Positions 1-12,926 of a stretch of DNA of 13,248 nucleotides are shown here, piece by piece. Source of the DNA: a bacterium (GTDB lineage Bacteria; Zhuqueibacterota; Zhuqueibacteria; Oceanimicrobiales; Oceanimicrobiaceae); NCBI GenBank assembly GCA_046757025.1, contig JBHHXN010000147.1, positions 1 through 13,248 of the forward strand, in the 5' to 3' direction. A model generated the notes under the pieces. The model made no database searches and had not been told where the DNA came from. It saw only the letters and a list, made by a program, of their open reading frames with translations. The translations under genes and the position numbers were made by a program. Position 1 is the first letter of the stretch; every line of letters starts with the position of its first letter.

Positions 1-832
1 AACAGGTCACAATTTGTCCGCTCCAGGATAACGAAGCCCCTGACCGAGTCGGGCCGGTCTTGCCAAAATGTAATCCCACCGGCAGAACGTCGGCAGCGTT
101 CACGACGCCGTCATTGTTGGTGTCCCCGGGCCAAACGAAACAGCCACAGCGAATGGTGGTTTTAGCGGCTACCGGGGTTAAGTTAATGGCATTGCCAATT
201 GGGTCATTTGCTGAAATATTCGATAGAGACCAGTTTATGTCTGTCGGGTCTGGAGTATTCACCTGAGATACAAATTTTATCCACACGACCGCGCCGCTGC
301 CACTCACCCCTCCCTGACCAGACTTGCGGCTCACACCTACGCTTACCTTTCCGCTGGCGTCATCGGGTGTGGCAATAAATATCAGATCGCCGCCAAGAAA
401 GTTTCCGGGGCCGATTACAGGGTTGGTGGACTGGGCGGAGACATAATCGATGTAGGTGGTCTGGTAGGTTAAATCAAAACTAACGCCGAACAGAACCGTG
501 ACCGGGTCTGGATCGCCGACGTCCACCGCGACCCAGAATTCCTTTCCACATCGCGCGGTTGAGGGCGCGTCGGGTTTTATGGAAACCGCCTGGAGAGGAG
601 TAGAGGTAGTGGTATACCAGAAACCGATTAAATGAATGTGGGACGAGCTGCTTGATACCCCGATGACATCCTGCCCCAATGTTCCAACCATGCGGTAACT
701 GTTGTTGCTGATCACGGCACCCCCATTGCCAAGCACACTTTTCGACACAGCATATTGGGCTTCAGCAGGCTTCTGGAGCGTCAGGCCAGCAACAAAAGCC
801 ATCAGCGTCAAAGTTAATATTAGCTTTTCCAT
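1..832 (-). CDS. Secreted cohesin + dockerin-like domain protein, runs off the window (3' truncated)
   Basis: Not in the ORF track; translated by hand as 277 open codons from ATG 832, with SD GGAAGGAG at 840-847. Signal peptide MEKLILTLTLMAFVAGLTLQKPAEA|Q. N-domain QYAVSKSVLGNGG...VGTLGQ...LIGFWY (614-757). Cohesin-like region (GKEFWVAVDV, LFGVSFDLTY, GNFLG, GKVSVGVS, GVSGSGAVVWIKF). Dockerin-like Ca-loop WPGDTNNDGVVNAADV (~86-133). Confidence 0.85.
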   Translation of the reverse strand, partial: MEKLILTLTLMAFVAGLTLQKPAEAQYAVSKSVLGNGGAVISNNSYRMVGTLGQDVIGVSSSSSHIHLIGFWYTTTSTPLQAVSIKPDAPSTARCGKEFWVAVDVGDPDPVTVLFGVSFDLTYQTTYIDYVSAQSTNPVIGPGNFLGGDLIFIATPDDASGKVSVGVSRKSGQGGVSGSGAVVWIKFVSQVNTPDPTDINWSLSNISANDPIGNAINLTPVAAKTTIRCGCFVWPGDTNNDGVVNAADVLPVGLHFGKTGPTRSGASLSWSGQIVTC

Positions 833-903
833 GGGTATTCTCCTTCCAATCATCGTGGCAACAAGTCCACTATAAACTGATTTGTTCATAAGATCAGATC
901 TCT

Positions 904-981
904 CAATTCAGGAATTGCAGATTTCAGATTGCGGTACAGATGCTCCCAATCCGCAATCTACATTCCGCAGTCCGCAATTGA
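904..981. repeat. Inverted arrays of degenerate heptamers (imperfect hairpin) just downstream of the protease stop
   Basis: Left arm ggaattg-cagattt-cagattg (911-931); right arm caatccg-caatcta-cattccg-cagtccg-caattga (947-981). The arms are approximately reverse-complementary. Confidence 0.65.
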
Positions 982-982
982 A

Positions 983-2542
983 TCAATTCCCAATAACGGC
1001 ATTTCCATTTCGCCATCCCTTCAATGTAACCAGCGTATTGATAATCAATTTCTCAGGATAAAATCCACCGGCGATCCTTATGGTTCGCGGCGGTTCTATA
1101 ATGGCGTTTATCCCCTCGATGACTGTATTGAAAGGATTGGATTGTGAGCCATATTCAAAACCGTTGTTGGCCTGGTCAACGAAAATCGGCGGCATGCGAA
1201 CTTTGAAAGTCATCGTTGGACCTGCCGGTGAAATGTCATAGATTTCAATATAACTGGCGGTTGCATTCGTCCAGCCTGTATTTCTTGGAGTAGAAGTGGC
1301 CGTGAAATCATAACCCTGGACCTTATCGATTCCGTTCCAGAGAGCCAGGCTGTCATTGTGCCAGGTGGTTGGCCAATGTCCCTCCCGTCGAATGAGACGA
1401 ATGACTTTACGCAAATTGGTCTCATTTTCATTAACCAGCCAGACGGCCAGTCCCTGATCATCCAACGCCTCCTGGTTGCGATTTTCTAAAATGAAATATT
1501 CCTTATAAGGATCATTTTGGAGCGGATCGTAGATAATAATTGCTTCGGGCTGGCTATCCTGCAGCGGAAAAGTTCGCTCGGTCTCTGCATCATAAAGAGT
1601 GTAAGTCCCATCGTGGGTGACAATCAGTGGCTTGACGAAACCCAGGTGGATTTTAGCCCACGGATCTAAATGGAGAATGCGCCACTCCGGATACAGCGCC
1701 ATAAAACTATATGGCCCTGGCGGAGGCGGAAGCCAGTCGGTATTATTATTGACGAGATAACCATCTGCAACGTGCGTGTTAGGAGTCGCCTCGTACAAGT
1801 CTCCCAAGCCGAGAATCTGGTGGCCCAGCTCATGGGCCATGGTGCCAACATGCTCATGTTCAGTGGCAGCCGCGATTGCCTGGCTGACATTGAGCTTATT
1901 TCCTTCTACCGGCACCGGGCTGGGATTCGTGGCCCGGACGTTGGCGCCACCGCTGGCAGCTGCATTGACCAGAATAACAGCCAGCTCATCTTTGGTAATC
2001 ACGCTGTCGCCGTTGCCACGCGGCGGCATATCATAAATCGCATAATCGAATAGAGGGTCGGCAATTCTGATCGCTTCCGCACGTTTCTGCTGAATTTCGA
2101 TCAAATCACAGCAATAATCGCCATAGGTGGCTTGTGTGGTACGCCAGCCAATAATGCCGTCTTTTGTCCCATCTAGGTCGCCGTCCGTTGCCGGCACCAG
2201 CAGCAAACGCCCATTGGAGTTTTCTCTGTAAATTTCAGCAACACTTGGCCTGCCATTCGCCCGGTTCTGGCCAAAAAACAGATCATCAAAGTGAGCCACA
2301 TCGTGCGCCGCTTGATGTTGAACGTCTGTGAATTCCATCAGCACCACCAAAAGCGGGCGCTCGACCACGGTATTCTGATTGGCAAAAAGTTCAGGCGTTG
2401 TAATAGCGCCGTTAACACCAGGGTGTGGTTGGTTGGGATGGGCGAACTGGCGCCACAATTGTCCGTAGGCTGTGCGAACCAGTGACGAGTGCATTCCGGC
2501 AATCAGGATGATAGCTCCTATGAAAAAACGGTATCTTTGCAT
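983..2542 (-). CDS. Secreted M6 (immune inhibitor A-like) zinc metalloprotease with C-terminal DUF1565-like module
   Basis: PLLVVLMEFTD, SVAEIYRENSNG, zinc motif HELGHQILGLGDLY (HELGH at 1820-1834), Met-turn YSFMA, PWAKIHLGF, EYFILENR. ATG 2542 with GGAG at 2551-2554 gives signal peptide MQRYRFFIGAIILIAGMHSSLVRTAYG|Q; the track start at 2599 overlaps the upstream gene. Confidence 0.85.
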   Translation of the reverse strand: MQRYRFFIGAIILIAGMHSSLVRTAYGQLWRQFAHPNQPHPGVNGAITTPELFANQNTVVERPLLVVLMEFTDVQHQAAHDVAHFDDLFFGQNRANGRPSVAEIYRENSNGRLLLVPATDGDLDGTKDGIIGWRTTQATYGDYCCDLIEIQQKRAEAIRIADPLFDYAIYDMPPRGNGDSVITKDELAVILVNAAASGGANVRATNPSPVPVEGNKLNVSQAIAAATEHEHVGTMAHELGHQILGLGDLYEATPNTHVADGYLVNNNTDWLPPPPGPYSFMALYPEWRILHLDPWAKIHLGFVKPLIVTHDGTYTLYDAETERTFPLQDSQPEAIIIYDPLQNDPYKEYFILENRNQEALDDQGLAVWLVNENETNLRKVIRLIRREGHWPTTWHNDSLALWNGIDKVQGYDFTATSTPRNTGWTNATASYIEIYDISPAGPTMTFKVRMPPIFVDQANNGFEYGSQSNPFNTVIEGINAIIEPPRTIRIAGGFYPEKLIINTLVTLKGWRNGNAVIGN

Positions 2543-2564
2543 GATATATTCTCCGAAAATAACA

Positions 2565-3758
2565 TTAGTTACCGATGCGAACGGTTCCTCCCTTAGCAAC
2601 CAATCTTATGCGCTTGGAAAGAATTAACGATTCTGCGTAGGTACCTGCCTTGATACTGATTTGAGCCCCGTCCCAGGCCATCGCGTATGCCTCGACGACG
2701 GTATCGAACGGTTGATTGGGCTTTCCCCGTTCTGTTCCGCTGTACGCGTAGTTGACGTAAATCTTGTTGGTATAATGCCTGATATAGACGTCATCGCTTA
2801 TGTCATTATCGAGCAACAGAACATGGAGTTGCCCTGAAATGTTTGGCGCCCGGCCGTCGTCCAGATCCCAGATGGTAAGCCCTTCTGGTTCTTCGCATTG
2901 ACTGCTGCCAAATGGCGGACTGCAATCAGGGTCATAACCGTACCAGAACGGCTGCGCGCCATCCCTGGTGGATTTGATGATCCTGCGTTTCGTCTGCATG
3001 TCGAACACACTGATTCCGTCTTGGTGAGTATCATAATCGCCGAAATACCCATTATTCATATAGAGCAGTTTTCCACTCTCCGAGAATGTTGCGCCCTGAC
3101 CACCTATCAACAAAGGTGAGCCGGATTCGTCAAGGAGCCGCAATTCGCCAGCATATTGAAGAGACATGGTGCCATTCTGCGCCAAAGCGTGCCAGTCGAG
3201 ATCATAAATATATACCCATCCAGGCGCATCTTCATGAGGCGCATAAACCAGCCCATTCACATCCACGGCAACCCATGGCGCATTCCCTGGCTGGGACAAA
3301 TGCTGCGGCAACTTTAGAGTTGCATGAGCGATGTACTGAAGATTGTCGGGATTGAAAGCCGCTACGGCAGGGGGCACGGCTCTGTCCTTATCTTCCAGTG
3401 CAAGAAGTAGAAATCCGGTGGACTCGTTGTACTGGTAGTAGTCGATATCACCAACATGATTATAGGCATTTATACTATTCAGATTCCCACAAGCCACTCC
3501 GGAAACGCCGCAGGCTATGGGCCCGGCCAGGTCAAGGTTAACGGGTATTTTCCACAAACCCCACTCCTGGGAAATAAACCAGTTGTTTTTGTCGTGCGCC
3601 AAACCCTGGACGTTACCAGCGTAGTTTGTTTCCGCCTCATCGGGACGCGTGCTAGTGTAGTTAAAGTAGGATTCATACAAAGCCTGCGCCGCTGCCTCGT
3701 GCGGGGTTGCCAGTGGCGCAAGAACGCAAGCCAATACAAATGCCTTTGCTATTTTCAT
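2565..3758 (-). CDS. Secreted hypothetical protein, probable beta-propeller + C-terminal DUF1565-like module (paralogue B)
   Basis: ATG 3758 with SD GAGGAG; signal peptide MKIAKAFVLACVLAPLATPHEAAA|Q. Blade-like motifs VQGLAHD, HVGDIDY, PWVAVD, GQGATFS, EEPEG. Collinear with 5095..6381. The fold is inferred. Confidence 0.8.
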   Translation of the reverse strand: MKIAKAFVLACVLAPLATPHEAAAQALYESYFNYTSTRPDEAETNYAGNVQGLAHDKNNWFISQEWGLWKIPVNLDLAGPIACGVSGVACGNLNSINAYNHVGDIDYYQYNESTGFLLLALEDKDRAVPPAVAAFNPDNLQYIAHATLKLPQHLSQPGNAPWVAVDVNGLVYAPHEDAPGWVYIYDLDWHALAQNGTMSLQYAGELRLLDESGSPLLIGGQGATFSESGKLLYMNNGYFGDYDTHQDGISVFDMQTKRRIIKSTRDGAQPFWYGYDPDCSPPFGSSQCEEPEGLTIWDLDDGRAPNISGQLHVLLLDNDISDDVYIRHYTNKIYVNYAYSGTERGKPNQPFDTVVEAYAMAWDGAQISIKAGTYAESLILSKRIRLVAKGGTVRIGN

Positions 3759-3871
3759 CTTATCACTCCTCATTCTCAGGTGCTGGAGTTGAATCATTAC
3801 CGCCCACAGCAGATGTATCATGAAATATTTCGAATCCATTTTTGACTCGACTGCCTCTTTGGCTTTGCAAC

Positions 3872-5071
3872 CTAGCGGCGGATCAGCTTGTATTTCCCAT
3901 ACAGGCCCCAGTGGTCTGATGATTGATTGGTCGTCAAGCCATCTTCGCTCAGGGTGCGGCCGATAAACGGCAAGACTTCCACAGTTGTGGGGATGACCTC
4001 GACCGAGCCGGCGTGACTGGGGAGGTAGAAGATGTAGTCAAGGCGGCCGCTGACCGCTTCATCGTCGAAATACGTTGCCAGTGGATTGCAGTCGCAGTAC
4101 GTCGTATGTTGGGCGCCGGTAAAATCGAATCCCGGGCTGTTGCGATCCGAATCCCGGCCGCCGGCCTGAGCGCCCATTCGCGGAATGAGCACGTTGTAGT
4201 ACTCAGACTGCTCGCCGTACACATTGAAGTCGCCCATGGCAAATACCACGTGATCAGGATGCGAGGCTCGATAGTTGGCGATCGCGTCCCGGAGTTGGGC
4301 TATTTGTGCAGAACGCGCCTCGAGGTCGCTGCTGCTATAGTCTGCCTGGGTGTGCGTGTTGAACAAGCCAATGGCGAAGCCATTCTTGTAAATCGTCGCC
4401 TGCACCCAGCCTTTGGCCGCGTTTGGTTCAAAGGTACCTGCCTCCTCTTCATACTCCACCTGCGCAAAACCAACCAGGGGGTACTTGCTCATTAATGCAA
4501 GTCCCGAGTTGAGAATGTCTCCTTCTATGTCCCCGTGATCACCATGAGGGTATCCCGAGCGTGGACGGATTCCATTGGCGCCATCGCCGCCGAAAAACAG
4601 GTCTTCGTCCCAGATCTCTTGAAAACCGACAACATCCGGGCTGGGGTTAGGGCCGCCGAAAAAATCGGCGATGTCGTCCGCACGCTCATAATCTTGCCAG
4701 CTCGGCATGAATACCTCATCTCCGGCCAGGTGGGTATTCAGGATAATAATCTCCAGCGTCGTCGCCGCCTGATAGCCGAGCTTCCCGATGACAGCGCTGC
4801 CGCCGGCAGCCGTTAAAACAACCGGCGTGTCTGTCGTGAAGGTTTCGTAATACTTGCCGGCCGCGATTTCAACAGTGCGGGCCGGCGAAGTCAAAGTCCG
4901 GACAATGCCGGCTTCGACCATTTGATACGGTTTGGCCTGAGAGCCATCCGGATCGGGACTGCCGGCTTTCGTCACATAAATGGCGTTCTGGGCAATAGCA
5001 CTGGCTGACATCCCCAACAACAAAGGGACCGTCAGCTCTATGATGTTTAAATGATAGCGAAAGCTTTGCAT
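3872..5071 (-). CDS. Secreted EEP-superfamily phosphodiesterase (sphingomyelinase C-like) with N-terminal DUF1565-like module
   Basis: EEP motifs LNTHL, DVVGFQEIW, NSGLALMSKYP, KGW, FNTHTQA, GDFNV, RLDYIF, SDHWG. ATG 5071 with GGAG at 5081-5084 is preferred; ATG 5095 overlapping the upstream TGA is an alternative. Signal ...LLLGMSASAIA|Q. Substrate not determinable from sequence. Confidence 0.85.
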   Translation of the reverse strand: MQSFRYHLNIIELTVPLLLGMSASAIAQNAIYVTKAGSPDPDGSQAKPYQMVEAGIVRTLTSPARTVEIAAGKYYETFTTDTPVVLTAAGGSAVIGKLGYQAATTLEIIILNTHLAGDEVFMPSWQDYERADDIADFFGGPNPSPDVVGFQEIWDEDLFFGGDGANGIRPRSGYPHGDHGDIEGDILNSGLALMSKYPLVGFAQVEYEEEAGTFEPNAAKGWVQATIYKNGFAIGLFNTHTQADYSSSDLEARSAQIAQLRDAIANYRASHPDHVVFAMGDFNVYGEQSEYYNVLIPRMGAQAGGRDSDRNSPGFDFTGAQHTTYCDCNPLATYFDDEAVSGRLDYIFYLPSHAGSVEVIPTTVEVLPFIGRTLSEDGLTTNQSSDHWGLYGKYKLIRR

Positions 5072-5094
5072 ACTAAATTTCTCCAAAATGAACA

Positions 5095-6381
5095 TCAATT
5101 CCCGATTATGACCGTCCCTCCCTCGGCGATTAGCCTGATCCGTTTGGAGAGAATCAACGATTCCGGATAGAAGCCGGCCTTAATTTTCATTTGCGCGCCA
5201 TCCCAGATCGGGTAGTGATTGTAAGCCTTACTTATTGTTTTGAAAGGCTGAGAAGGCGACCCATACTCGTTGCCCGTATGGGCGTCATCAACATGGATGA
5301 TTCCGCTATAATGCTTGAGGTAAATTTCATCGGCACTCGCGTCATTATCCAGCAAAAGAACATGAAGTTGTCCTGTAATTCCCGGAGCTCTACCGTCGTC
5401 CAGGTCCCAGATGGTGCTCCCTTCCGGCTCTTCCGATTCACCAGGCCATGTGCCGGGGTTGAAGTCGTAATTGAAGTAGCCATAGCCGTCGGTGGAATGT
5501 GCTACTCTGCGCCCGGTTTGCATGTCAAAAACATTTATGCCATCGTGTGCATAATGGTCATCATAAAAACCAGTCACAATGTAGAGCAGGTTTCCACTTT
5601 CTGAGATCACCCCGCCCTGTATATGCGTGAGCGTGAGCGAATTGCCGGATTCATCGAGAAATGCGAATTCACCATTTGGCTGCAATTTCACCTGGTTTGG
5701 CACAAGATCCCATCTCAATTTGTATATCTCACATTTATTGACTTGCCAATCGGAGGTATATACGCGACCGTTGGGATCGATTGCACACCATCCCGCGCTT
5801 GTACCGCCACTCAACTCGGCATGTCCGACGAAACCGAGATCTCGGGCTCGAAAAACAGCCAAGAGCCCGGCTGGGCCTCTTGTTACCGGTATGACCAGAT
5901 ACACCTCGCCATCATGATTCTCATTTTTATAGTAGCTAAGATCGCCAAAATGATCGTAGCCTTTACTGGCAAGCTCGGGTATGTCATCGAGTGATATCCG
6001 TAGAACTCCCGGAGTATGGGGTGAGACGGAGCCAAGATTTTGAGTTACCGGAATTTTCCATAACGACCGTTCTGCAGGATCCTCATCGTCTGCGTCTGAT
6101 TGCGTGATAAACCAGTTGCTATCATCATGGGTTATCCCCTGAACGTCTTCATGGTATCCAGGATTGACATCGTTTGGATAATTGCCCAAATACAGAAAGT
6201 AGCTTTCGTAGCCATCCTGGGCAATGCCAATTCTCCAAAAGAGTGTTAGAAAAAGCGCTGTTATGGCGATTCCGGTTCGCGCTGCTAATTTATGGTTCAA
6301 TACTCCGAAATCCCGGTCGGTTCGTCGAAGCGATAGCAGCCACCCCCCTTGTCCGCTTGTATTTGTTGCCATTTCTCTCAT
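5095..6381 (-). CDS. Secreted hypothetical protein, probable beta-propeller + C-terminal DUF1565-like module (paralogue A)
   Basis: 428 aa ORF with YESYF, VQGITHD, LWKIPV, HFGDLSYY, IQGG, EEPEGSTIWDLDDGRAPGITGQLHVLLLDND. Hydrophobic stretch IAITALFLTLFWRIGIA|Q. Start uncertain: about 35 residues precede the h-region. Confidence 0.8.
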   Translation of the reverse strand: MREMATNTSGQGGWLLSLRRTDRDFGVLNHKLAARTGIAITALFLTLFWRIGIAQDGYESYFLYLGNYPNDVNPGYHEDVQGITHDDSNWFITQSDADDEDPAERSLWKIPVTQNLGSVSPHTPGVLRISLDDIPELASKGYDHFGDLSYYKNENHDGEVYLVIPVTRGPAGLLAVFRARDLGFVGHAELSGGTSAGWCAIDPNGRVYTSDWQVNKCEIYKLRWDLVPNQVKLQPNGEFAFLDESGNSLTLTHIQGGVISESGNLLYIVTGFYDDHYAHDGINVFDMQTGRRVAHSTDGYGYFNYDFNPGTWPGESEEPEGSTIWDLDDGRAPGITGQLHVLLLDNDASADEIYLKHYSGIIHVDDAHTGNEYGSPSQPFKTISKAYNHYPIWDGAQMKIKAGFYPESLILSKRIRLIAEGGTVIIGN

Positions 6382-6394
6382 GGTTCGCTCTCTC

Positions 6395-8035
6395 TTACTG
6401 CAACGTTACCAACACAAGGACAAGCCCTTTACCATGAGTCAGCGGGGTCATCGCCTTGCCGATGATGGCGCCGCTGGCTTGTGAGTGATCTGACACTTTC
6501 ATCGCGTGGCCGGGCGTTTCAGAAGTGGTTAGCAAATCGCCTACTTCAATGACGCCATTGGAAGCATCGGCATAGCAGTAGACGCGGCCTGTCAAAGCAA
6601 CCGGGTACTGTCCATCGGCTACTGAGCCGAATTGTCCCATGAGCATGCCCGGTTTAACGCCGCCCGCGCCGCTGATGATGCCCGCCACTTTGCGGTCATA
6701 AACCTGGCTGCTGACCACGAGCTTGCCGGGATTTTCCGCATCGATGGAGACCACCATGCCCGGCTGAATTTGTTGCTGAGCAGAATTAGCTCCGCCGACC
6801 TGATTCGCCACTACATCAAACTGTTCGGAGAGGTCTGAGCCGCCGGTTATCTCCAGGACTTTGGTGGTGGTCTTACCGTTCTCGTCAACCGTACAAACGT
6901 CATTCCCACCAGAATTTTTAACCCTGAAGACGCCATTTTCTCCACCATTATTGTCAAGCCTCACGATGACATCATAGTTGCTTGACAGGATCAAGACGCT
7001 GTTCGGAATGGATGGGTCGGTATTGATTCTTCCTATGATGCCGCCAAGACCCAGGTCAGCGTGGTCATTATCACTGGAGAAAAAGCCACCGAAATCGGTG
7101 GTCCCTTTTCCCCAAACCCCGTAGCCGCTGCCGGTACTCACGCCAAACACACCGTTGCCGTCGCTGTTGACGCCATATACTGCGGAAAAAAGCGAGCTAT
7201 TGTTGTGGCCCTCTATGGCGCCACCCCCACCTTCATTAACGCCGAATATCGCAGAGGTCAGGGCTGCGCTAGTTATGCCCCAAACAGCTTTGCCATCGAC
7301 GCTTCGTCCAAAGACGCCGGTGCCAAAACCATCGGCTGAGCCATGCACGCCGTAGCCTTCATGACTAAAGCCGCGTACACCAGCAGATTCTGTAAAAGGG
7401 CCCTCAGCGAACCCCATAAGGCCATGCAGGTTCAGACCTTCAAGAGCCGCTCCTGTCCCAAATTGGTGAACTTCAACCCCCCCGTCTTCACTTCCAACTT
7501 GCCCTTTGAAGGGCAAACTCAATCCTGTTGCCGCTGGTTTATCCCACACCACATTCGAACCGTTGTACATAAGAGCTTGACCGGCAGATGCGCCCGTTGT
7601 ATTAAGCTTTGACGTCGTAACCGCACCATCAGCAATTTTGTTGCTCGTCACAGCATTATCTACTATCGACCGCGCCTGCAAGCCATAAGCCGAGGCGGTA
7701 AGTTGTATCCGTGGCGAAAGCTCTGTGCCTGTGCCCACGGTGATGCCAAGCCAATAGGGTTTATCAAAAGGTCTGTTCAACGGATTCGCGCTTCCTAACC
7801 TCACATTGAAAATACCATGGCTTATAGCTGCAACCTGCGACTCAGACCAGATGGATGTTCCACCAGATGCCGCTTCGTACAGCTTGAAGGTCAGGGTGTA
7901 ATTGCCATCTGAGACCACGTTGCCACTAACATCGGTTAACACCCCCTGGTAACTGATGGTTTGAGGAACCTGCCCCCAAAGGAATGGCACAGTTAATACG
8001 GAAAACAGTGTGCAGAGAAAAAGTGTCCGATTCAT
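6395..8035 (-). CDS. Secreted tail-fibre-like protein with Gly-rich repeats and C-terminal peptidase G2-like intramolecular chaperone
   Basis: SD AAGGAGG at 8043-8049. Signal peptide then QVPQTISYQGVLTD...LTFKLY...GIFNVRLG. 10-aa repeats IVDNAVTSNK/IADGAVTTSK. (G/A)VxG repeats every ~10-12 aa (~7080-7480). C-domain GGSDLSEQF...PGMVVSID...GIISG...VALTGRV...GDLLTTS...IIGKAM. Confidence 0.75.
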   Translation of the reverse strand: MNRTLFLCTLFSVLTVPFLWGQVPQTISYQGVLTDVSGNVVSDGNYTLTFKLYEAASGGTSIWSESQVAAISHGIFNVRLGSANPLNRPFDKPYWLGITVGTGTELSPRIQLTASAYGLQARSIVDNAVTSNKIADGAVTTSKLNTTGASAGQALMYNGSNVVWDKPAATGLSLPFKGQVGSEDGGVEVHQFGTGAALEGLNLHGLMGFAEGPFTESAGVRGFSHEGYGVHGSADGFGTGVFGRSVDGKAVWGITSAALTSAIFGVNEGGGGAIEGHNNSSLFSAVYGVNSDGNGVFGVSTGSGYGVWGKGTTDFGGFFSSDNDHADLGLGGIIGRINTDPSIPNSVLILSSNYDVIVRLDNNGGENGVFRVKNSGGNDVCTVDENGKTTTKVLEITGGSDLSEQFDVVANQVGGANSAQQQIQPGMVVSIDAENPGKLVVSSQVYDRKVAGIISGAGGVKPGMLMGQFGSVADGQYPVALTGRVYCYADASNGVIEVGDLLTTSETPGHAMKVSDHSQASGAIIGKAMTPLTHGKGLVLVLVTLQ

Positions 8036-8080
8036 GGCTTTGCCTCCTTGTTTGAGGTTAGTTTATCTGATTTCTATTTA

Positions 8081-8226
8081 GTGTCCATCCGTAATCGCAT
8101 TCCCGAATGCTCCCTGCTTAAAACATACAGGGACAAGCTTGTCGGGAATCTCATGCCTAACTGACCAATGGGTTCCCGCTTAAAGATTGCGGGAATGACA
8201 AAAAAAGGTTCTTTACGGATGGACAC
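8081..8226. mobile_element. 146 bp MITE-like non-autonomous element
   Basis: Perfect 14 bp terminal inverted repeats GTGTCCATCCGTAA (8081-8094) / TTACGGATGGACAC (8213-8226). Direct repeat TATTTA flanks both sides (8075-8080, 8227-8232). No ORF; internal palindromes. Confidence 0.8.
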
Positions 8227-8387
8227 TATTTAGATTACGCTTAAGGGTCCGCAATTACCCAAAAATGTTTTATTTCAACAACAAAAGCTTTTTTTTTAAA
8301 CAACATCTTTATTTTGCCAAAACTTGACATTATAGTATTACCACGAACTTTTACATTTTTATGCAAAATATCCCCAAAGCCTTATGA

Positions 8388-8511
8388 AAAATTCAAAATG
8401 CAAAGTGAAAAATGCAAATTTCAAAATTCAAAGCTGATAGTTTTTCTTATCCCCCCCCTTTTTATAAATTAATTTTGCATATTGCAATTTCAAATTTTCA
8501 ATTTGCATTTG
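8388..8511. repeat. Inverted arrays of AT-rich heptamers
   Basis: aaaattc-aaaatgc-aaagtga-aaaatgc-aaatttc-aaaattc (8388-8429), a spacer, then taatttt-gcatatt-gcaattt-caaattt-tcaattt-gcatttg (8470-8511), approximately the reverse complement. Confidence 0.7.
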
Positions 8512-8684: not shown

Positions 8685-9314
8685 TCAAATCTCACCCCGA
8701 AGGGATTTGCTGATAACCTCAGCTTTGCAGTGGACATGCAGTTTTTTGTAGATGTTTTTAATGTGGGTGCGGACGGTTTCTATGGAGATGAACATGCGAT
8801 CGGCGATCATTTTATAACTCAAACCATCGACCAGTCCAATTACAATCTCTCTTTCTTTGTCGGTCAGGGGAGATTCAGAATTTTTAGACTTTTGTGGTTG
8901 GAAATACTCGATGACTTTGCGGGCAATTTGCGGCGTCATTGGAGCACCGCCAGCATATAAAACTTCTATTGCTTGTTTGATTTCCGCAAAAGGCCTGTTT
9001 TTTAATAGATACCCTGAAGCACCAGCACAAAGGGATTGGAATATTTTATGGGAATCATCATAGATGGTGAGCATGATAATGTCGATATCTGGAAATTTCT
9101 CCTTGATCAATTTGATGCCATCAATTCCAGACATTCCAGGCAAGCCTATATCCATGAGGATAACATCAGGAAAATTATCTTCATTGATTTTGACAATAAA
9201 TTTTTCTACAGAACCTTCAACCAGTTCACACAAAAATTCTTGTTGGTCATTTAAATATCCCTGAATGGCCTGGCACACCTCGTGGTCATCTTCTATTATC
9301 GCGACATTTATCAT
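8685..9314 (-). CDS. NarL/FixJ (LuxR-type HTH) response regulator
   Basis: REC domain IIEDD, DVILMDIGLPGMSG, IMLT, GASGYLLK. HTH LTDKEREIV...GLSYKMIADRMFISIETVRTHIKNIYKKLHV. Confidence 0.95.
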   Translation of the reverse strand: MINVAIIEDDHEVCQAIQGYLNDQQEFLCELVEGSVEKFIVKINEDNFPDVILMDIGLPGMSGIDGIKLIKEKFPDIDIIMLTIYDDSHKIFQSLCAGASGYLLKNRPFAEIKQAIEVLYAGGAPMTPQIARKVIEYFQPQKSKNSESPLTDKEREIVIGLVDGLSYKMIADRMFISIETVRTHIKNIYKKLHVHCKAEVISKSLRGEI

Positions 9315-9320
9315 GGTACA

Positions 9321-9349
9321 ATTATATCACATTTTTTGACAAGTGTAAA
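9321..9349 (-). promoter_or_regulatory. sigma70-type promoter of the response regulator (probably leaderless transcript)
   Basis: Minus strand TTTACA (9349-9344), 17 nt spacer, TATAAT (9326-9321) with extended TGn. Only 6 nt to ATG 9314, and no SD. Confidence 0.7.
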
Positions 9350-9366
9350 TCCCATGAATATGGGAT
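9349..9366. promoter_or_regulatory. Perfect 7-4-7 palindrome, candidate autoregulatory box
   Basis: ATCCCAT-gaat-ATGGGAT overlapping the first base of the -35 element. Confidence 0.65.
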
Positions 9367-9473
9367 AAATTGAGAATTCATCAACTGCTGATGCCATTTA
9401 TAAACCCAAATTAATGGCTTCCTGCTTTAAAAACTGCGGGAGAGACGACGGGGTGAATTGTTACGAAACTTTT

Positions 9474-12400
9474 TTACACCGCTTTCATTTTTAGAATCAC
9501 TTTTGTTTCGTCCTGGTGTGAAATTACTAAATCCGCTCTGAGCCGTTTTGCTCGCATGCGCATATTCTTCAATCCATTACCTACTCGTATTTTGCTTTCA
9601 TCAAATCCTTTTCCGTCGTCTGAAATCGTCAAATAAAATTCACTACCTTTATTATTTAAATGAATATGAACGTTTTTTGCAGACGAATGCCGGGCGATGT
9701 TATTAATGGTTTCTTTGAAAATCAAATATAAATTTTGTCGAATACCTGCGGGCAGGATTTTGGCACAATCCAGTCCATCTGATTGAAAAGTTACTTTGAT
9801 CTGTTTTGGTGAAAGCGTATTCATTGCAAAATCACGCATTCGATCGAGCAGGTCACCAATCGTATCGTTTCGGGAATCAATGGACCAGACGATATCGCTC
9901 ATGGTCGTGACAATCTCACGACTCATCTCGCCAATTTTTTTGGCAGAAGATAAGATTTTACTGTTCTCATTCGTTGTCTGTATGATTTCCGAATGTACAG
10001 CAATCTTTGTCAGAGTTGACCCGATGTCATCATGCAAATCACTAGCTAAGCGTGTGCGGATTCGCTCCAATTCCAGACGTCGAGATATCCGATAATTATG
10101 GAAAAGAATGATAGTACCTGCAATGGCAGCAAATAATAAGATTTGAAACCACCAGGTTTGCCAAAATGGTGGTGTGATTATGATTTTGATCGCAGTCCCG
10201 GTTTCATTCCAAACCCCATCATTATTTGAAGCCTTTACACGAAATATGTATTTCCCTGGATCAAGATTGGTGTAGGTAGCAAAACGCCGTGTTTCTGAAT
10301 AATACCAATCTTCATCGAAACCTTCCATTTTATATGCATACTCATTCTTCTCCGGACTATTATAATCCAACGCTGCAAACTCGAAGGAAAAAACATCATC
10401 TTTATAGGAAAGCACAATTTCATCAGTTTCAGAAATATGTTTTATTAAAGGTGTACTGCCGTCGGGAGAAATTTTTATGGTTTTGTTGGCGATTTGGAAA
10501 TCGGTAATTACTACAGGAGGGATAGTCGGATTATCTTCAATACTATCGGGATAAAAACTATTAAAACCATTAACACCCCCGAAGAACATCTCTCCGTTGC
10601 GACTATTAAAAAAGGCACCTCGATTGAATTCATTGCTTTGTAATCCGTCATACACATCATAATTTCGAAATGTTTTTGATTTCGGATTAAATTTTGACAC
10701 TCCTTTTTTCGTGCTCAGCCAAAGATTTCCGCTCGCATCCTCAAGGATACCGCAAATATTGTCATTGGGCAGTCCATCTTTTTCAGTATATCTATTAAAT
10801 CTCCTAGTTTTCGGATCGAATCGATTGAGTCCTCCTTCAGTACCAACCCAGATGGTTTCGGAGTTGTCTTCAAAAATACACTGCACAAAATTATTACTCA
10901 AACTTGTAGAATCATCGGGATTGTTTATCCAATGTGTAACTGTACCGGTTTCTCGATTGAATAAATTTATCCCACCGCCGCCGGTACCCAACCAGAGCCT
11001 TCCGGCTTGATCTTCATAAAAGCAACGAACATCGTTATTATTGAGTCCCTCACGTTTTCCAGCTTCATGGACAAAATGATTAAACATTACTTTTTTTTTG
11101 CCATCCCAAATCATTTGATTCAACCCGCCTGCATGCGTCCCTATCCACAAAACACTGCTACTATCGGTTGTATCTTCAAAAAAAGATAGGACATACTTTT
11201 GATTTAAACCTTTCCCGAAAACAGTGTGGATGCCGTAGGCGTAAGGCCAGGGGACGAACTTTTTCGTTTTCCGATCAAATTGAAGGAATTTACCGCCATA
11301 GGTTCCAAGCCAGAGTATCTTATATGAATCTTCAAAAATGGCGATGATGTTGTTGACTTGTGGATAATATATGTCTATGCCCAACCCCTCAATGTCTCCG
11401 CGTTGGCTAATCCAATGTTTAAATTTGCCGGTCTCGCGATCGAATTGATTTAATCCACCGCCGTAAGTTCCGATCCAAATAGCGCCGGATTCGTCTTCAT
11501 ATATAGCTCTGACATCATTATTGCTTAAACTACTGGAGTCACCAGTAACATATAGCCAATGCAAAAATCTATTCTCGGCGCCACGATTACGCCCAACCTT
11601 ACAAACGCCTCCGCCAGAAGTGCCAATCCAAAGAACACCGGCTCTATCTTCAAAAATGGTAGTGACTTCATTATCACTTAAACTGCTTGGTTTACCAGGT
11701 TCCGTCAACCATTGCGTAAAGATTGCTGTTTCTGGATTAAAACAATTGAGGCCGCCTCCATCCGTTGCAATCCAGAGCAGGCCTGAATTATCTACATATA
11801 GAGAATTGAGATAATTATTACTCAAACTTAATGGATTGTCTGATTCGTTTAACCAGTGGGTGAAGGTTTCTTTTTGCAAGTCGAATCGATTGAGACCGCC
11901 GCCATGTGTTCCCAGCCAGAGTACTTTTCTATATATATTCGCACTGTCCTCAGAAGATCGATTTGCACATATGGCATTTATCCAATCATTGCTCAAACTA
12001 TTGGGATTTCGAGGATCATGAATCCAATGTTTAAAGGTTTCTGTTTGAGGATCAAACCTGACCAGACCACCCCCTTCCGGTCCTAGCCAGAGCACATCAG
12101 ATTGGTCTGCATAAATACAAGCTATTGCATTGGATCTTACACTGTCAGGATTTTCGGGACCGTGGCGCCAATGTGTGAATTTTGTGGTTTCTGAATGCTG
12201 TTCTATGGTCGTTGAATCGGTACTTAATATGAGTCGGTTCAGCCCGCCGCCCTCCGTTCCGATCCAGAGCACATTTTTGTTGTACGGATCAACCAATAAA
12301 GATAATACATAATCGTCACTTAAACTGTAAGGATCGTTTTCTCGATGTCTGAAGGTGTTAAAAGAATCTGTTTCGCGATTAAAGCGTGCCAGACCGCCGC

Positions 12401-12731
12401 CGTAAGTACCAATCCACAGCGCACCAGATGTATCTTCAACAATTGCTCGAATTTCATTTCTGCTCAGACTCTTCGGATTATTGGAGTCATGTTTATAAGT
12501 CGTAAAGCGGTAGCCATCATATTTACTCAGTCCAGCATTTGTACCAAACCACATAAATCCTTTACTATCCTGAAAGATGCAATTAACAATACTTGGAGAT
12601 AAACCCTGATCATGGGTGAGGCGTTCAAATTTGAGCTTGAGGTTCTGGGCTATTCCCAAGCTGCTAAAAGAAAATAGTAAACAAACAGAAAGAAAGATTA
12701 TGCTCATTGAACGAATCAATTTTATTTGCAT
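9474..12731 (-). CDS. Sensor histidine kinase: Reg_prop beta-propellers, Y_Y_Y, TM, HisKA_3, HATPase
   Basis: Many LWIGTxGGGL / SLSxNxV repeats. Y_Y_Y: YAYKMEGFDEDW...YTNLDPGKYIFRVKASNNDG. TM WWFQILLFAAIAGTIILF. H-box RLASDLHDDIG, N-box ETINNIARHS, DDGKGF, GNGLKNMRMRA. Confidence 0.95.
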   Translation of the reverse strand: MQIKLIRSMSIIFLSVCLLFSFSSLGIAQNLKLKFERLTHDQGLSPSIVNCIFQDSKGFMWFGTNAGLSKYDGYRFTTYKHDSNNPKSLSRNEIRAIVEDTSGALWIGTYGGGLARFNRETDSFNTFRHRENDPYSLSDDYVLSLLVDPYNKNVLWIGTEGGGLNRLILSTDSTTIEQHSETTKFTHWRHGPENPDSVRSNAIACIYADQSDVLWLGPEGGGLVRFDPQTETFKHWIHDPRNPNSLSNDWINAICANRSSEDSANIYRKVLWLGTHGGGLNRFDLQKETFTHWLNESDNPLSLSNNYLNSLYVDNSGLLWIATDGGGLNCFNPETAIFTQWLTEPGKPSSLSDNEVTTIFEDRAGVLWIGTSGGGVCKVGRNRGAENRFLHWLYVTGDSSSLSNNDVRAIYEDESGAIWIGTYGGGLNQFDRETGKFKHWISQRGDIEGLGIDIYYPQVNNIIAIFEDSYKILWLGTYGGKFLQFDRKTKKFVPWPYAYGIHTVFGKGLNQKYVLSFFEDTTDSSSVLWIGTHAGGLNQMIWDGKKKVMFNHFVHEAGKREGLNNNDVRCFYEDQAGRLWLGTGGGGINLFNRETGTVTHWINNPDDSTSLSNNFVQCIFEDNSETIWVGTEGGLNRFDPKTRRFNRYTEKDGLPNDNICGILEDASGNLWLSTKKGVSKFNPKSKTFRNYDVYDGLQSNEFNRGAFFNSRNGEMFFGGVNGFNSFYPDSIEDNPTIPPVVITDFQIANKTIKISPDGSTPLIKHISETDEIVLSYKDDVFSFEFAALDYNSPEKNEYAYKMEGFDEDWYYSETRRFATYTNLDPGKYIFRVKASNNDGVWNETGTAIKIIITPPFWQTWWFQILLFAAIAGTIILFHNYRISRRLELERIRTRLASDLHDDIGSTLTKIAVHSEIIQTTNENSKILSSAKKIGEMSREIVTTMSDIVWSIDSRNDTIGDLLDRMRDFAMNTLSPKQIKVTFQSDGLDCAKILPAGIRQNLYLIFKETINNIARHSSAKNVHIHLNNKGSEFYLTISDDGKGFDESKIRVGNGLKNMRMRAKRLRADLVISHQDETKVILKMKAV

Positions 12732-12895: not shown

Positions 12896-12926
12896 TATGA
12901 CCGTCATCTCAGAGATGACGGTCATA
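12896..12926. terminator. Perfect 15 bp inverted repeat (terminator or REP-like element)
   Basis: TATGACCGTCATCTC-a-GAGATGACGGTCATA, 21 nt downstream of the stop at 12948. No clean U-tract on the minus strand. Confidence 0.55.

What the first reader, a model, noticed from the sequence alone, without database searches (positions are those of the whole stretch)
2525..5106. Homologous gene junctions reveal a duplicated [propeller + enzyme] cassette with swapped catalytic cargo
Seen on the minus strand: the junction at 5106-5057 reads ATCGGGAAT TGA TGTTCATTTTGGAGAAATTTAGT ATG CAA AGC TTT CGC. The junction at 2576-2528 reads ATCGGTAAC TAA TGTTATTTTCGGAGAATATATC ATG CAA AGA TAC CGT. Similarity runs through the 23/22 nt spacer and into the next gene (MQSFRY vs MQRYRF), although those genes encode unrelated enzymes. 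Inference: a two-gene unit was duplicated and the catalytic domain exchanged behind a retained signal-peptide start. It also supports the starts at 5071 and 2542.
Basis: partly seen in the sequence, partly recalled or inferred. Interest (0 to 1): 0.7.

Follow-up and report, generated by a model that had tools for sequence, protein, structure and literature searches.

The report
Fibre operon with matching-tagged secreted enzymes
The two look-alike gene junctions are real but are a side detail of an operon in which four likely secreted proteins share one short tag and sit behind a phage-like fibre gene; across many bacteria the tag type tracks the fibre type, so the tag likely docks interchangeable enzymes onto the fibre tip.

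Summary
The junction likeness is real (0 of 612 other junctions in the genome score as high) but ends at codon 6. It is no relic of a recent duplication: silent sites of the two propeller genes are saturated, the genes lie in different clades, and both enzymes are intact members of widespread families with their own signal peptides. What is there: both five-bladed propellers, the M6-like protease and the EEP hydrolase all carry one ~65-aa terminal module, a beta-helix N-cap without its helix. Such tagged genes follow a MAT-like fibre gene whose conserved C-terminal domain resembles a Peptidase_G2 self-cleaving chaperone (39 of 50 loci vs 0 of 34 controls; reverse test 10 of 24 vs 0 of 16). New here: two fibre-tip classes pair with two tag types (extension in 0 of 83 class I, 9 of 9 class II cases), though only one contrast rests on well-supported branches. 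Best reading: tags dock swappable cargo on the fibre (inferred; the complex predictor was unavailable). The scan noted this fibre-plus-tagged-enzyme system before on other DNA; my paper searches found no description of it.

The parts
6395..8035 (-). Fibre gene (546 aa): signal peptide (by eye), MAT-N-like domain (about 7661-7972), Gly-rich shaft, class I tip motif ITGGS-D-x-x-E, conserved C-terminal domain 'fibC'
   Evidence: (Bdello_MAT_N E 1.4e-4, below cut-off)
6398..6835 (-). fibC: ~145-aa C-terminal domain, Peptidase_G2 / capsid-cement-like, predicted self-cleaving chaperone and likely tag partner; only copy in this genome
5095..6381 (-). Propeller A (428 aa from the first ATG; true start may lie further down): five-bladed beta-propeller + C-terminal tag
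5098..5298 (-). Tag of propeller A (beta-helix N-cap module, ends at the stop codon)
5054..5097 (-). Junction A: stop overlapping an in-frame ATG, 23-nt spacer with GGAGA, first six codons of the EEP gene
3872..5071 (-). EEP-family hydrolase (399 aa; sphingomyelinase/phospholipase C-like, catalytic motifs present) with the tag at its N-terminus
   Evidence: PF03372 E 3.6e-14; TIGR03395 below cut-off
4781..4981 (-). Tag of the EEP hydrolase, directly after the signal peptide
2565..3758 (-). Propeller B (397 aa): five-bladed beta-propeller closest in fold to glutaminyl cyclases and YjiK + C-terminal tag
2568..2762 (-). Tag of propeller B
2525..2567 (-). Junction B: 22-nt spacer with GGAGA and first six codons of the M6-like gene
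983..2542 (-). M6-like zinc metalloprotease (519 aa, HExxH at residue 237) + C-terminal tag
   Evidence: (TIGR03296 E 5.6e-20, below cut-off)
986..1186 (-). Tag of the M6-like protease; folds alone in prediction (pLDDT 94)
1..889 (-). Last gene, cut by the contig end: 'GGFW' N-terminal domain shared with small proteins of related loci, then a cohesin-like stretch (by eye) and the start of a dockerin; likely surface adaptor
   Evidence: (Dockerin_1 E 0.014)

Best explanation
The window holds an operon in which a fibre gene is followed by four genes whose products share a ~65-aa terminal tag, and the tag likely docks these interchangeable, likely secreted enzymes onto the tip of the fibre, which is predicted to be a surface-held trimer. 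Shown: the shared tag, its homology to the N-cap of right-handed beta-helices, its terminal position with no helix rungs behind it, its tie to fibC-ending fibre genes in both directions, and the pairing of tag type with fibre-tip class. Inferred steps: (1) all six proteins are exported by signal peptides; (2) fibC trimerises the fibre and cuts itself off before the invariant D-x-x-E, as the phi29 gp12 chaperone does; (3) the tag's terminal beta-hairpin adds to the open beta edge at the new tip, or binds fibC itself; (4) the GGFW protein, whose C-terminus changes with the host (T9SS signal, dockerin), holds the fibre's N-domain at the cell surface. The result would be a mix-and-match enzyme display for digesting proteins and lipids at a distance. 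The alike junctions are best read as a translation-start element kept by selection behind homologous tag-coding ends, where strains also exchange alleles.
For: Tag in all four genes, in 119 of 120 listed propeller homologues, 45 of 50 EEP and 58 of 74 M6 hits, and on trypsin-like, M12, M36, M43, C10, S8, beta-lactamase-like and alpha/beta-hydrolase neighbours. fibC gene in 39 of 50 loci of 8 kb or more with a tagged propeller vs 0 of 34 with an untagged one (58 of 88 vs 3 of 63 for all lengths). In fibre arrays only the fibC-ending paralogue precedes the tagged genes (L012, L019, L025, L098). Reverse test in a phylum sample: next gene tagged at 10 of 24 strong fibC places vs 0 of 16 weak ones; 9 more of the 24 end in a second, related tail (7 of 9 pass a leave-one-out profile). 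Class match: 0 of 83 tagged genes beside class I fibres carry the 21-25-aa extension, 9 of 9 beside class II do (7 by the fixed pattern, 2 by length and look); L031 holds both pairs side by side. On a propeller-only tree the extension changes 9 times and fibre class follows it in all 51 rows. fibC is 60% conserved per column with G, D, E, F invariant in 38 of 38. The adaptor's anchor changes with the host while the tag does not.
Against: No structural or experimental evidence of binding. Class II fibC is one clade, and only 1 independent contrast rests on well-supported branches (7 on the unsupported best tree), so no significance can be claimed. Loci include near-duplicates. 5 of 24 strong fibC places have no complete tag next door, and 31 tagged genes lie in loci without a detected fibC, many of them short. 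The G2 assignment is weak (2 of 43 rows, best E 0.0028; no PDB sequence hit) and the residue before D varies. The tag works at N-terminal and internal positions too, which strains a model needing a free C-terminal strand. Stoichiometry of four cargos on one trimer is unexplained.
Confidence: 0.5

Rival explanations
1. The tag is recognised by fibC acting in trans as a folding, export or carrier chaperone; the enzymes are then released rather than displayed on the fibre.
For: Same genomic ties and class match as the best reading. fibC is far more conserved than the shaft, resembles trimeric cement proteins (PF23982 in 22 of 43 rows), and short extra fibC ORFs occur (L006, L211, L212). Cargo lacks host-type sorting tails.
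Against: fibC is nearly always fused to a full fibre with the N-domain; the class difference includes the residues before the predicted cut, which would stay on the fibre.
Confidence: 0.22
2. The tag is a self-sufficient accessory domain (surface, glycan or self-association module). It travels with the fibre only because the operon is inherited and shuffled as a unit.
For: The tag folds alone in prediction; class II is a single clade and only one contrast is well supported; beta-helix caps are very common (37,560 hits).
Against: The extension is gained or lost repeatedly on the propeller trees yet never mismatches fibre class; unrelated C10 and C25 proteases beside class II fibres end in the same second tail without any cap module; both pair types sit in single genomes (G090, G151) and in one locus (L031).
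Confidence: 0.18
3. One reading: a [propeller + enzyme] cassette was duplicated in this lineage and the catalytic domain was exchanged behind a retained signal-peptide start.
For: Junction likeness beyond chance and unique in the genome; a strain variant with a replaced patch around junction A.
Against: Saturated silent sites and separate clades; likeness stops at codon 6; both enzymes are whole members of widespread families with opposite tag positions; leader absent behind 76 other propeller genes. An old whole-gene replacement by crossover inside the first codons cannot be excluded.
Confidence: 0.1

Closest known systems
Bdellovibrio MAT (mosaic adhesive trimer) fibres, Caulton et al. 2024 (PMC10769870; passages read)
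   Same: Signal peptide, conserved N-terminal beta-rich domain (weak NF053851 match, E 1.4e-4 here, 8e-12 in L093), mosaic shaft, C-terminal chaperone in some members; N-domain proposed to bind an unknown surface element.
   Different: MAT tips are S74 chaperones (SDxxxK) or adhesive domains; here the tip is G-x-D-x-x-E fibC. The passages I read describe no tagged partner enzymes and no adaptor gene.
Phage phi29 gp12 pre-neck appendage with its C-terminal autocleaving chaperone (Pfam PF11962 Peptidase_G2)
   Same: Invariant D-x-x-E right after the fibre end; weak Pfam and Atlas likeness; beta-rich chaperone body described in PMC4690869 (passages read).
   Different: Chromosomal gene with a signal peptide, no phage context (only 6 distant viral hits, 30-37%); P1 residue varies; the catalytic-residue numbering of gp12 is recalled, the primary paper was not held.
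DUF1565 / Pel9A / pectin methylesterase / tailspike right-handed beta-helix N-cap
   Same: Clear sequence homology of the tag (PDB 8fqc E 1.8e-8, 2nsp E 1.6e-5; DUF1565 in 12 of 45 rows).
   Different: The tag stops after the cap and a terminal hairpin, sits at protein ends on unrelated enzymes and has no helix rungs or catalytic groove.
Cellulosome (dockerin-tagged enzymes on a cohesin scaffoldin; recalled)
   Same: Many unrelated hydrolases with one small shared tag, clustered with a structural protein and a surface anchor.
   Different: Tag is not a dockerin, scaffold is a phage-like fibre, cargo is mostly proteases and lipid hydrolases; binding is untested.
Bacterial/plant-type glutaminyl cyclase (3mbr, 3nok) and YjiK (3qqz) five-bladed propellers
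   Same: Best fold matches of propeller B (Z 20.9, rmsd 2.9, 225 aligned; Z 19.4; Z 19.0).
   Different: 12-14% identity, no profile match; own set of conserved polar residues (Q51, H101, D104, W162, Q221, E290, E292); function open.

Membership tests
MAT fibres | Conserved ~130-aa beta-rich domain right after the signal peptide | tested here: inconclusive
   NF053851 21.7 bits vs cut-off 60; relatives 15.7-45.2 bits or none
MAT fibres | S74 chaperone (SDxxxK) or adhesive tip domain at the C-terminus | tested here: not met
   No S74 match for any of 43 fibC rows; motif is G-x-D-x-x-E-x-F. Non-S74 MATs exist, so this separates it from the S74 subgroup only
MAT fibres | Homotrimeric surface fibre | not testable with these tools
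Peptidase_G2 intramolecular chaperone | Profile match to PF11962 | tested here: inconclusive
   2 of 43 rows, best E 0.0028; Atlas cluster with PF11962 on 12% of members at 0.95
Peptidase_G2 intramolecular chaperone | Invariant acidic D-x-x-E motif at the fibre/chaperone boundary | tested here: met
   D and E in 38 of 38 rows; its role in gp12 is recalled, not read
Peptidase_G2 intramolecular chaperone | Self-cleavage after trimer folding | not testable with these tools
   needs expression
Right-handed beta-helix proteins (DUF1565/Pel9A-like) | N-terminal cap with helix | tested here: met
Right-handed beta-helix proteins (DUF1565/Pel9A-like) | Stack of beta-helix rungs after the cap | tested here: not met
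   Tag ends at the stop codon in three genes and is followed by the EEP domain in the fourth
Cellulosome | Dockerin on the enzymes | tested here: not met
   No dockerin match in the four cargo proteins or 25 neighbours; dockerin only in the GGFW protein
T9SS cargo | Por_Secre_tail C-terminal sorting domain on the enzymes | tested here: not met
   Absent from the four cargos and the fibre; present on 4 of 14 GGFW proteins scanned
Glutaminyl cyclase (five-bladed) | Five-bladed propeller fold | tested here: met
   Z 20.9 to 3mbr
Glutaminyl cyclase (five-bladed) | Profile match and catalytic residue set | tested here: inconclusive
   No profile match in 94 rows; no residue-level structural alignment was returned

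The most novel reading that the evidence does not exclude
A widespread, undescribed bacterial assembly line: a phage-derived self-maturing fibre serves as a scaffold, a truncated beta-helix cap serves as a plug-in tag with at least two lock-and-key classes, and a small adaptor ties the fibre to whatever anchoring route the host has. It would be a cellulosome-like enzyme display built from tailspike parts, and it would name the missing surface partner of MAT-type fibres.
Probability: 0.45. Interest if true: 0.85.

Novelty: categorically new. Interest (0 to 1): 0.68.

Why it matters
If the tag binds the fibre, uncultured Planctomycetota, Acidobacteriota, Eiseniibacteriota, Bacteroidota, KSB1 and others have a second, independently built way to mount sets of hydrolases on the cell surface, with a 65-residue tag and a class code that can be tested with two small proteins. 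It would give a role to an unannotated propeller family (274 hits) and an unannotated fibre-end domain, and offer a candidate (the GGFW protein) for the unknown surface element that holds MAT fibres. The junction likeness by itself is of modest interest.

Tried and rejected
Complex prediction of fibC trimer with the tag: tool not available, nothing was folded, so no verdict. Search of 50%-representatives with the tag profile: 37,560 hits, but the 150 listed are large multi-repeat proteins, so it did not size the terminal-tag family. Foldseek of the tag alone: no match under E 0.001, weak rows are beta-helix caps. No PDB sequence match for fibC or the propeller body; no PHROG match for tag, propeller or fibC. 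No Rfam match; promoter and terminator counts at chance level; the junctions fold no better than shuffles, so an RNA structure was rejected. No RNA holder listed. A closer look at the X4 variant could not be made, so it rests on one contig. Atlas search with the propeller did not complete. Careful tree did not finish; quick trees only. Paper searches: DUF1565 + C-terminal + secreted (3 listings, none on this); mosaic adhesive trimer (1 paper); gp12/phi29 chaperone; Peptidase_G2 (0 occurrences in the 10 listed); intramolecular chaperone + tail fiber-like + secreted + Planctomycet (2 listings); beta-helix cap + docking (2 listings). For these I saw listings and abstract starts only, except passages of PMC10769870 and PMC4690869; no supplements were read, and the MAT paper's supplementary tables of further tip domains may bear on novelty. 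Rejected: recent duplication (saturated silent sites); assembly artefact (whole stretch in one contig in two runs that may be the source); tag as host sorting signal (anchor varies on the adaptor, not on cargo).
Full report
Setting. The window is one whole contig (C147) of a 5.96-Mb assembly. On the minus strand a sensor kinase and LuxR-type regulator precede six co-directional genes: a 546-aa fibre-like gene (8035-6395), propeller A (6381-5095), an EEP hydrolase (5071-3872), propeller B (3758-2565), an M6-like metalloprotease (2542-983) and a gene cut by the contig end (889 to <1). All six begin with what look like signal peptides (judged by eye; no predictor was run).

The observation. The two junctions are as quoted. 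Their spacers score 22 against each other; the best of 612 other crudely called junctions scores 18 against either, and none reaches the summed score. The consensus occurs nowhere else in the genome. The likeness in the coding part is short: 10 of 15 nt after ATG, gone after codon 6. The junctions fold no better than shuffles.

The duplication-and-swap reading. The propellers are 45% identical, but only 21 of 73 four-fold-degenerate sites agree (25% expected by composition), 7 of 34 in the 3' third, and in a quick tree of 60 of the 120 listed homologues they sit on opposite sides of 96-supported branches, each with closer relatives from other samples. A neutral 23-nt spacer would not outlast saturated silent sites, so the likeness needs selection or later exchange. 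Both enzymes are whole members of larger families: 44 of 50 EEP hits have the same N-terminal module (1 internal, 5 none), 58 of 74 M6 hits have it at the C-terminus. Of 76 distinct post-stop sequences behind other tagged propellers none approaches the leader (best 29 vs 43). The closest EEP relative (P0281, 76%) keeps the in-frame leader peptide of junction A. One contig of run X4 matches 5069-6802 with 11 differences, 9 of them in 5104-5136, leaves the window at the EEP start and rejoins at 4981; by my reading of that table four of the nine are silent and the rest change two residues of the terminal hairpin. The spacer thus looks better kept than the coding sequence on either side, and the region is exchanged between strains. 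This rests on one contig laid at 85% likeness from the same study as the possible source runs.

What is really shared. All four genes between the fibre and the last gene carry one 65-67-aa module: C-terminal in both propellers and the protease, N-terminal in the EEP enzyme (blastp E 3e-9 to 1e-3). It is homologous to the N-cap of right-handed beta-helices (tailspike 8fqc E 1.8e-8, pectin methylesterase, Pel9A; DUF1565 in 12 of 45 rows), is predicted to fold alone (pLDDT 94) and ends in a beta-hairpin with no rungs behind it. 119 of 120 listed propeller homologues (274 found) carry it. In 151 loci from genomes and metagenomes, neighbours of tagged propellers often end in the same module: trypsin-like, M12, M36, M43, C10, beta-lactamase-like and alpha/beta hydrolases. 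Propeller B is a confident five-bladed propeller (pLDDT 93) closest to glutaminyl cyclases and YjiK (Z 19-21), with no profile match; its activity is open.

The fibre link. A fibre gene ending in a conserved ~145-aa domain (fibC) lies in 39 of 50 loci of 8 kb or more whose propeller is tagged and in 0 of 34 whose propeller is not (58 of 88 vs 3 of 63 overall; two of those three propellers are cut by contig ends). The loci include near-duplicates. In fibre arrays the fibC-ending copy is the one before the tagged genes. In this genome fibC occurs once, here; the other fibre paralogues have different ends and no tagged neighbours were found for them. The reverse test used 151 genomes of the phylum (46 with a match); I fetched 40 of the listed places, chosen by score and contig length. 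The next gene carries the module at 10 of 24 strong places and 0 of 16 weak ones, with no propeller needed. Nine more strong places have a C10, C25 or unassigned protein ending in a second short tail; five have neither (one next gene stops at what looks like the start of the module, one contig end, one broken fibre, two without). fibC has 60% mean column identity and an invariant G-x-D-x-x-E-x-F at its start; it resembles capsid cement proteins (22 of 43 rows) and weakly Peptidase_G2 (2 of 43; Atlas 0.95). That D-x-x-E holds the catalytic glutamate of phi29 gp12 is recalled; the paper was not held.

A two-class code. Fibres fall into class I (ITGG-x-D, as here) and class II (LG-x-GLDY), and class II is one clade even with the motif left out of the tree. 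Among tagged genes, 0 of 83 beside class I carry a 21-25-aa extension after the module and 9 of 9 beside class II do (7 by a fixed pattern, 2 by length and look); 31 more lie in loci without a detected fibC. The extension aligns with the stand-alone second tail; 11 of 15 such tails pass a leave-one-out profile at 8 bits and no class I neighbour does. L031 holds one pair of each class. On a tree of 69 propeller domains the extension changes 9 times and fibre class agrees in all 51 rows with both traits. Against this: only one independent contrast lies on well-supported branches, so a sign test cannot be significant.

The adaptor. The last gene begins with a 'GGFW' domain found in 18 of 50 tagged loci vs 0 of 34. 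Its C-terminus varies with the host: T9SS type A signal above cut-off in 4 of 14 scanned, GC-type dockerin in 1 above and 1 below cut-off, short Chloroflexota-type tails by eye. Cargo and fibre carry no such signals. The MAT paper states that the fibre N-domain presumably binds an unidentified surface element (PMC10769870, passage read); the GGFW protein is a candidate (inference).

Mechanism and rivals. Most likely (0.5) the tag docks cargo at the fibre tip and the adaptor holds the fibre on the cell. Alternatively fibC chaperones or carries tagged cargo in trans (0.22), or the tag is an independent accessory domain that co-travels (0.18). No binding evidence exists; the complex predictor was unavailable.

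Novelty. The parts have known relatives (MAT N-domain, G2-like chaperone, beta-helix cap), but the arrangement fails the defining tests for MAT-S74 fibres, beta-helix enzymes, cellulosomes and T9SS cargo, matches no NCBIfam model above cut-off, and my eight paper searches (open-access library only) found no description. Earlier notes of this scan reported the same fibre-plus-tagged-enzyme pairing in other genomes; I had reached that reading before looking, and they are not independent support. The class code, the second tail and the strain-level patch are not in the lines of those notes that I saw. Interest 0.68: the junction itself is minor, the system behind it is surprising and directly testable.

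Noticed in passing
window 8685-12731 (-): Y_Y_Y/Reg_prop sensor kinase with HisKA_3 and a LuxR-type response regulator lie upstream of the operon on the same strand; they may control it.
   Followed up: no
window 8073-8234 and 8396-8510: AT-rich intergenic region before the fibre gene holds a 22-nt inverted repeat (91%) and a 37-nt inverted repeat built of 14-nt units; no Rfam match.
   Followed up: partly
window 915-969 and 12896-12926: A hairpin of short repeats between the M6 gene and the last gene, and a perfect 15-bp palindrome near the contig end.
   Followed up: no
window, all six operon genes: By eye every predicted mature protein starts with Gln after the signal peptide, and the propeller's closest folds are glutaminyl cyclases; a dedicated cyclase role is possible but untested.
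   Followed up: partly
G000 contig C83, 2-1231: A paralogue of the last gene (73% over 203 aa) breaks off at the same dockerin peptide at its contig end, so a shared repeat likely broke both contigs.
   Followed up: no
G000 contigs C83, C99, C322, C353: Other fibre paralogues end in what looks by eye like an S74-type chaperone and three are followed directly by a GGFW-like gene, without tagged cargo (not scanned).
   Followed up: partly
L204:6519-8108: A C10-like protease behind a class I fibre stops just inside the start of the tag, as if the tag were frameshifted off.
   Followed up: no
L143:3310-3612; L072:1122-1367 and 2588-2917: Short ORFs that are little more than the tag itself, next to tagged propellers.
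   Followed up: no
run X4, window 2563-2581; run X1 record 2, window 2560-2622: Contigs of X4 also break at junction B, and X1 holds a 170-nt contig matching it with 8 differences, hinting at further variants of this junction in the community.
   Followed up: no
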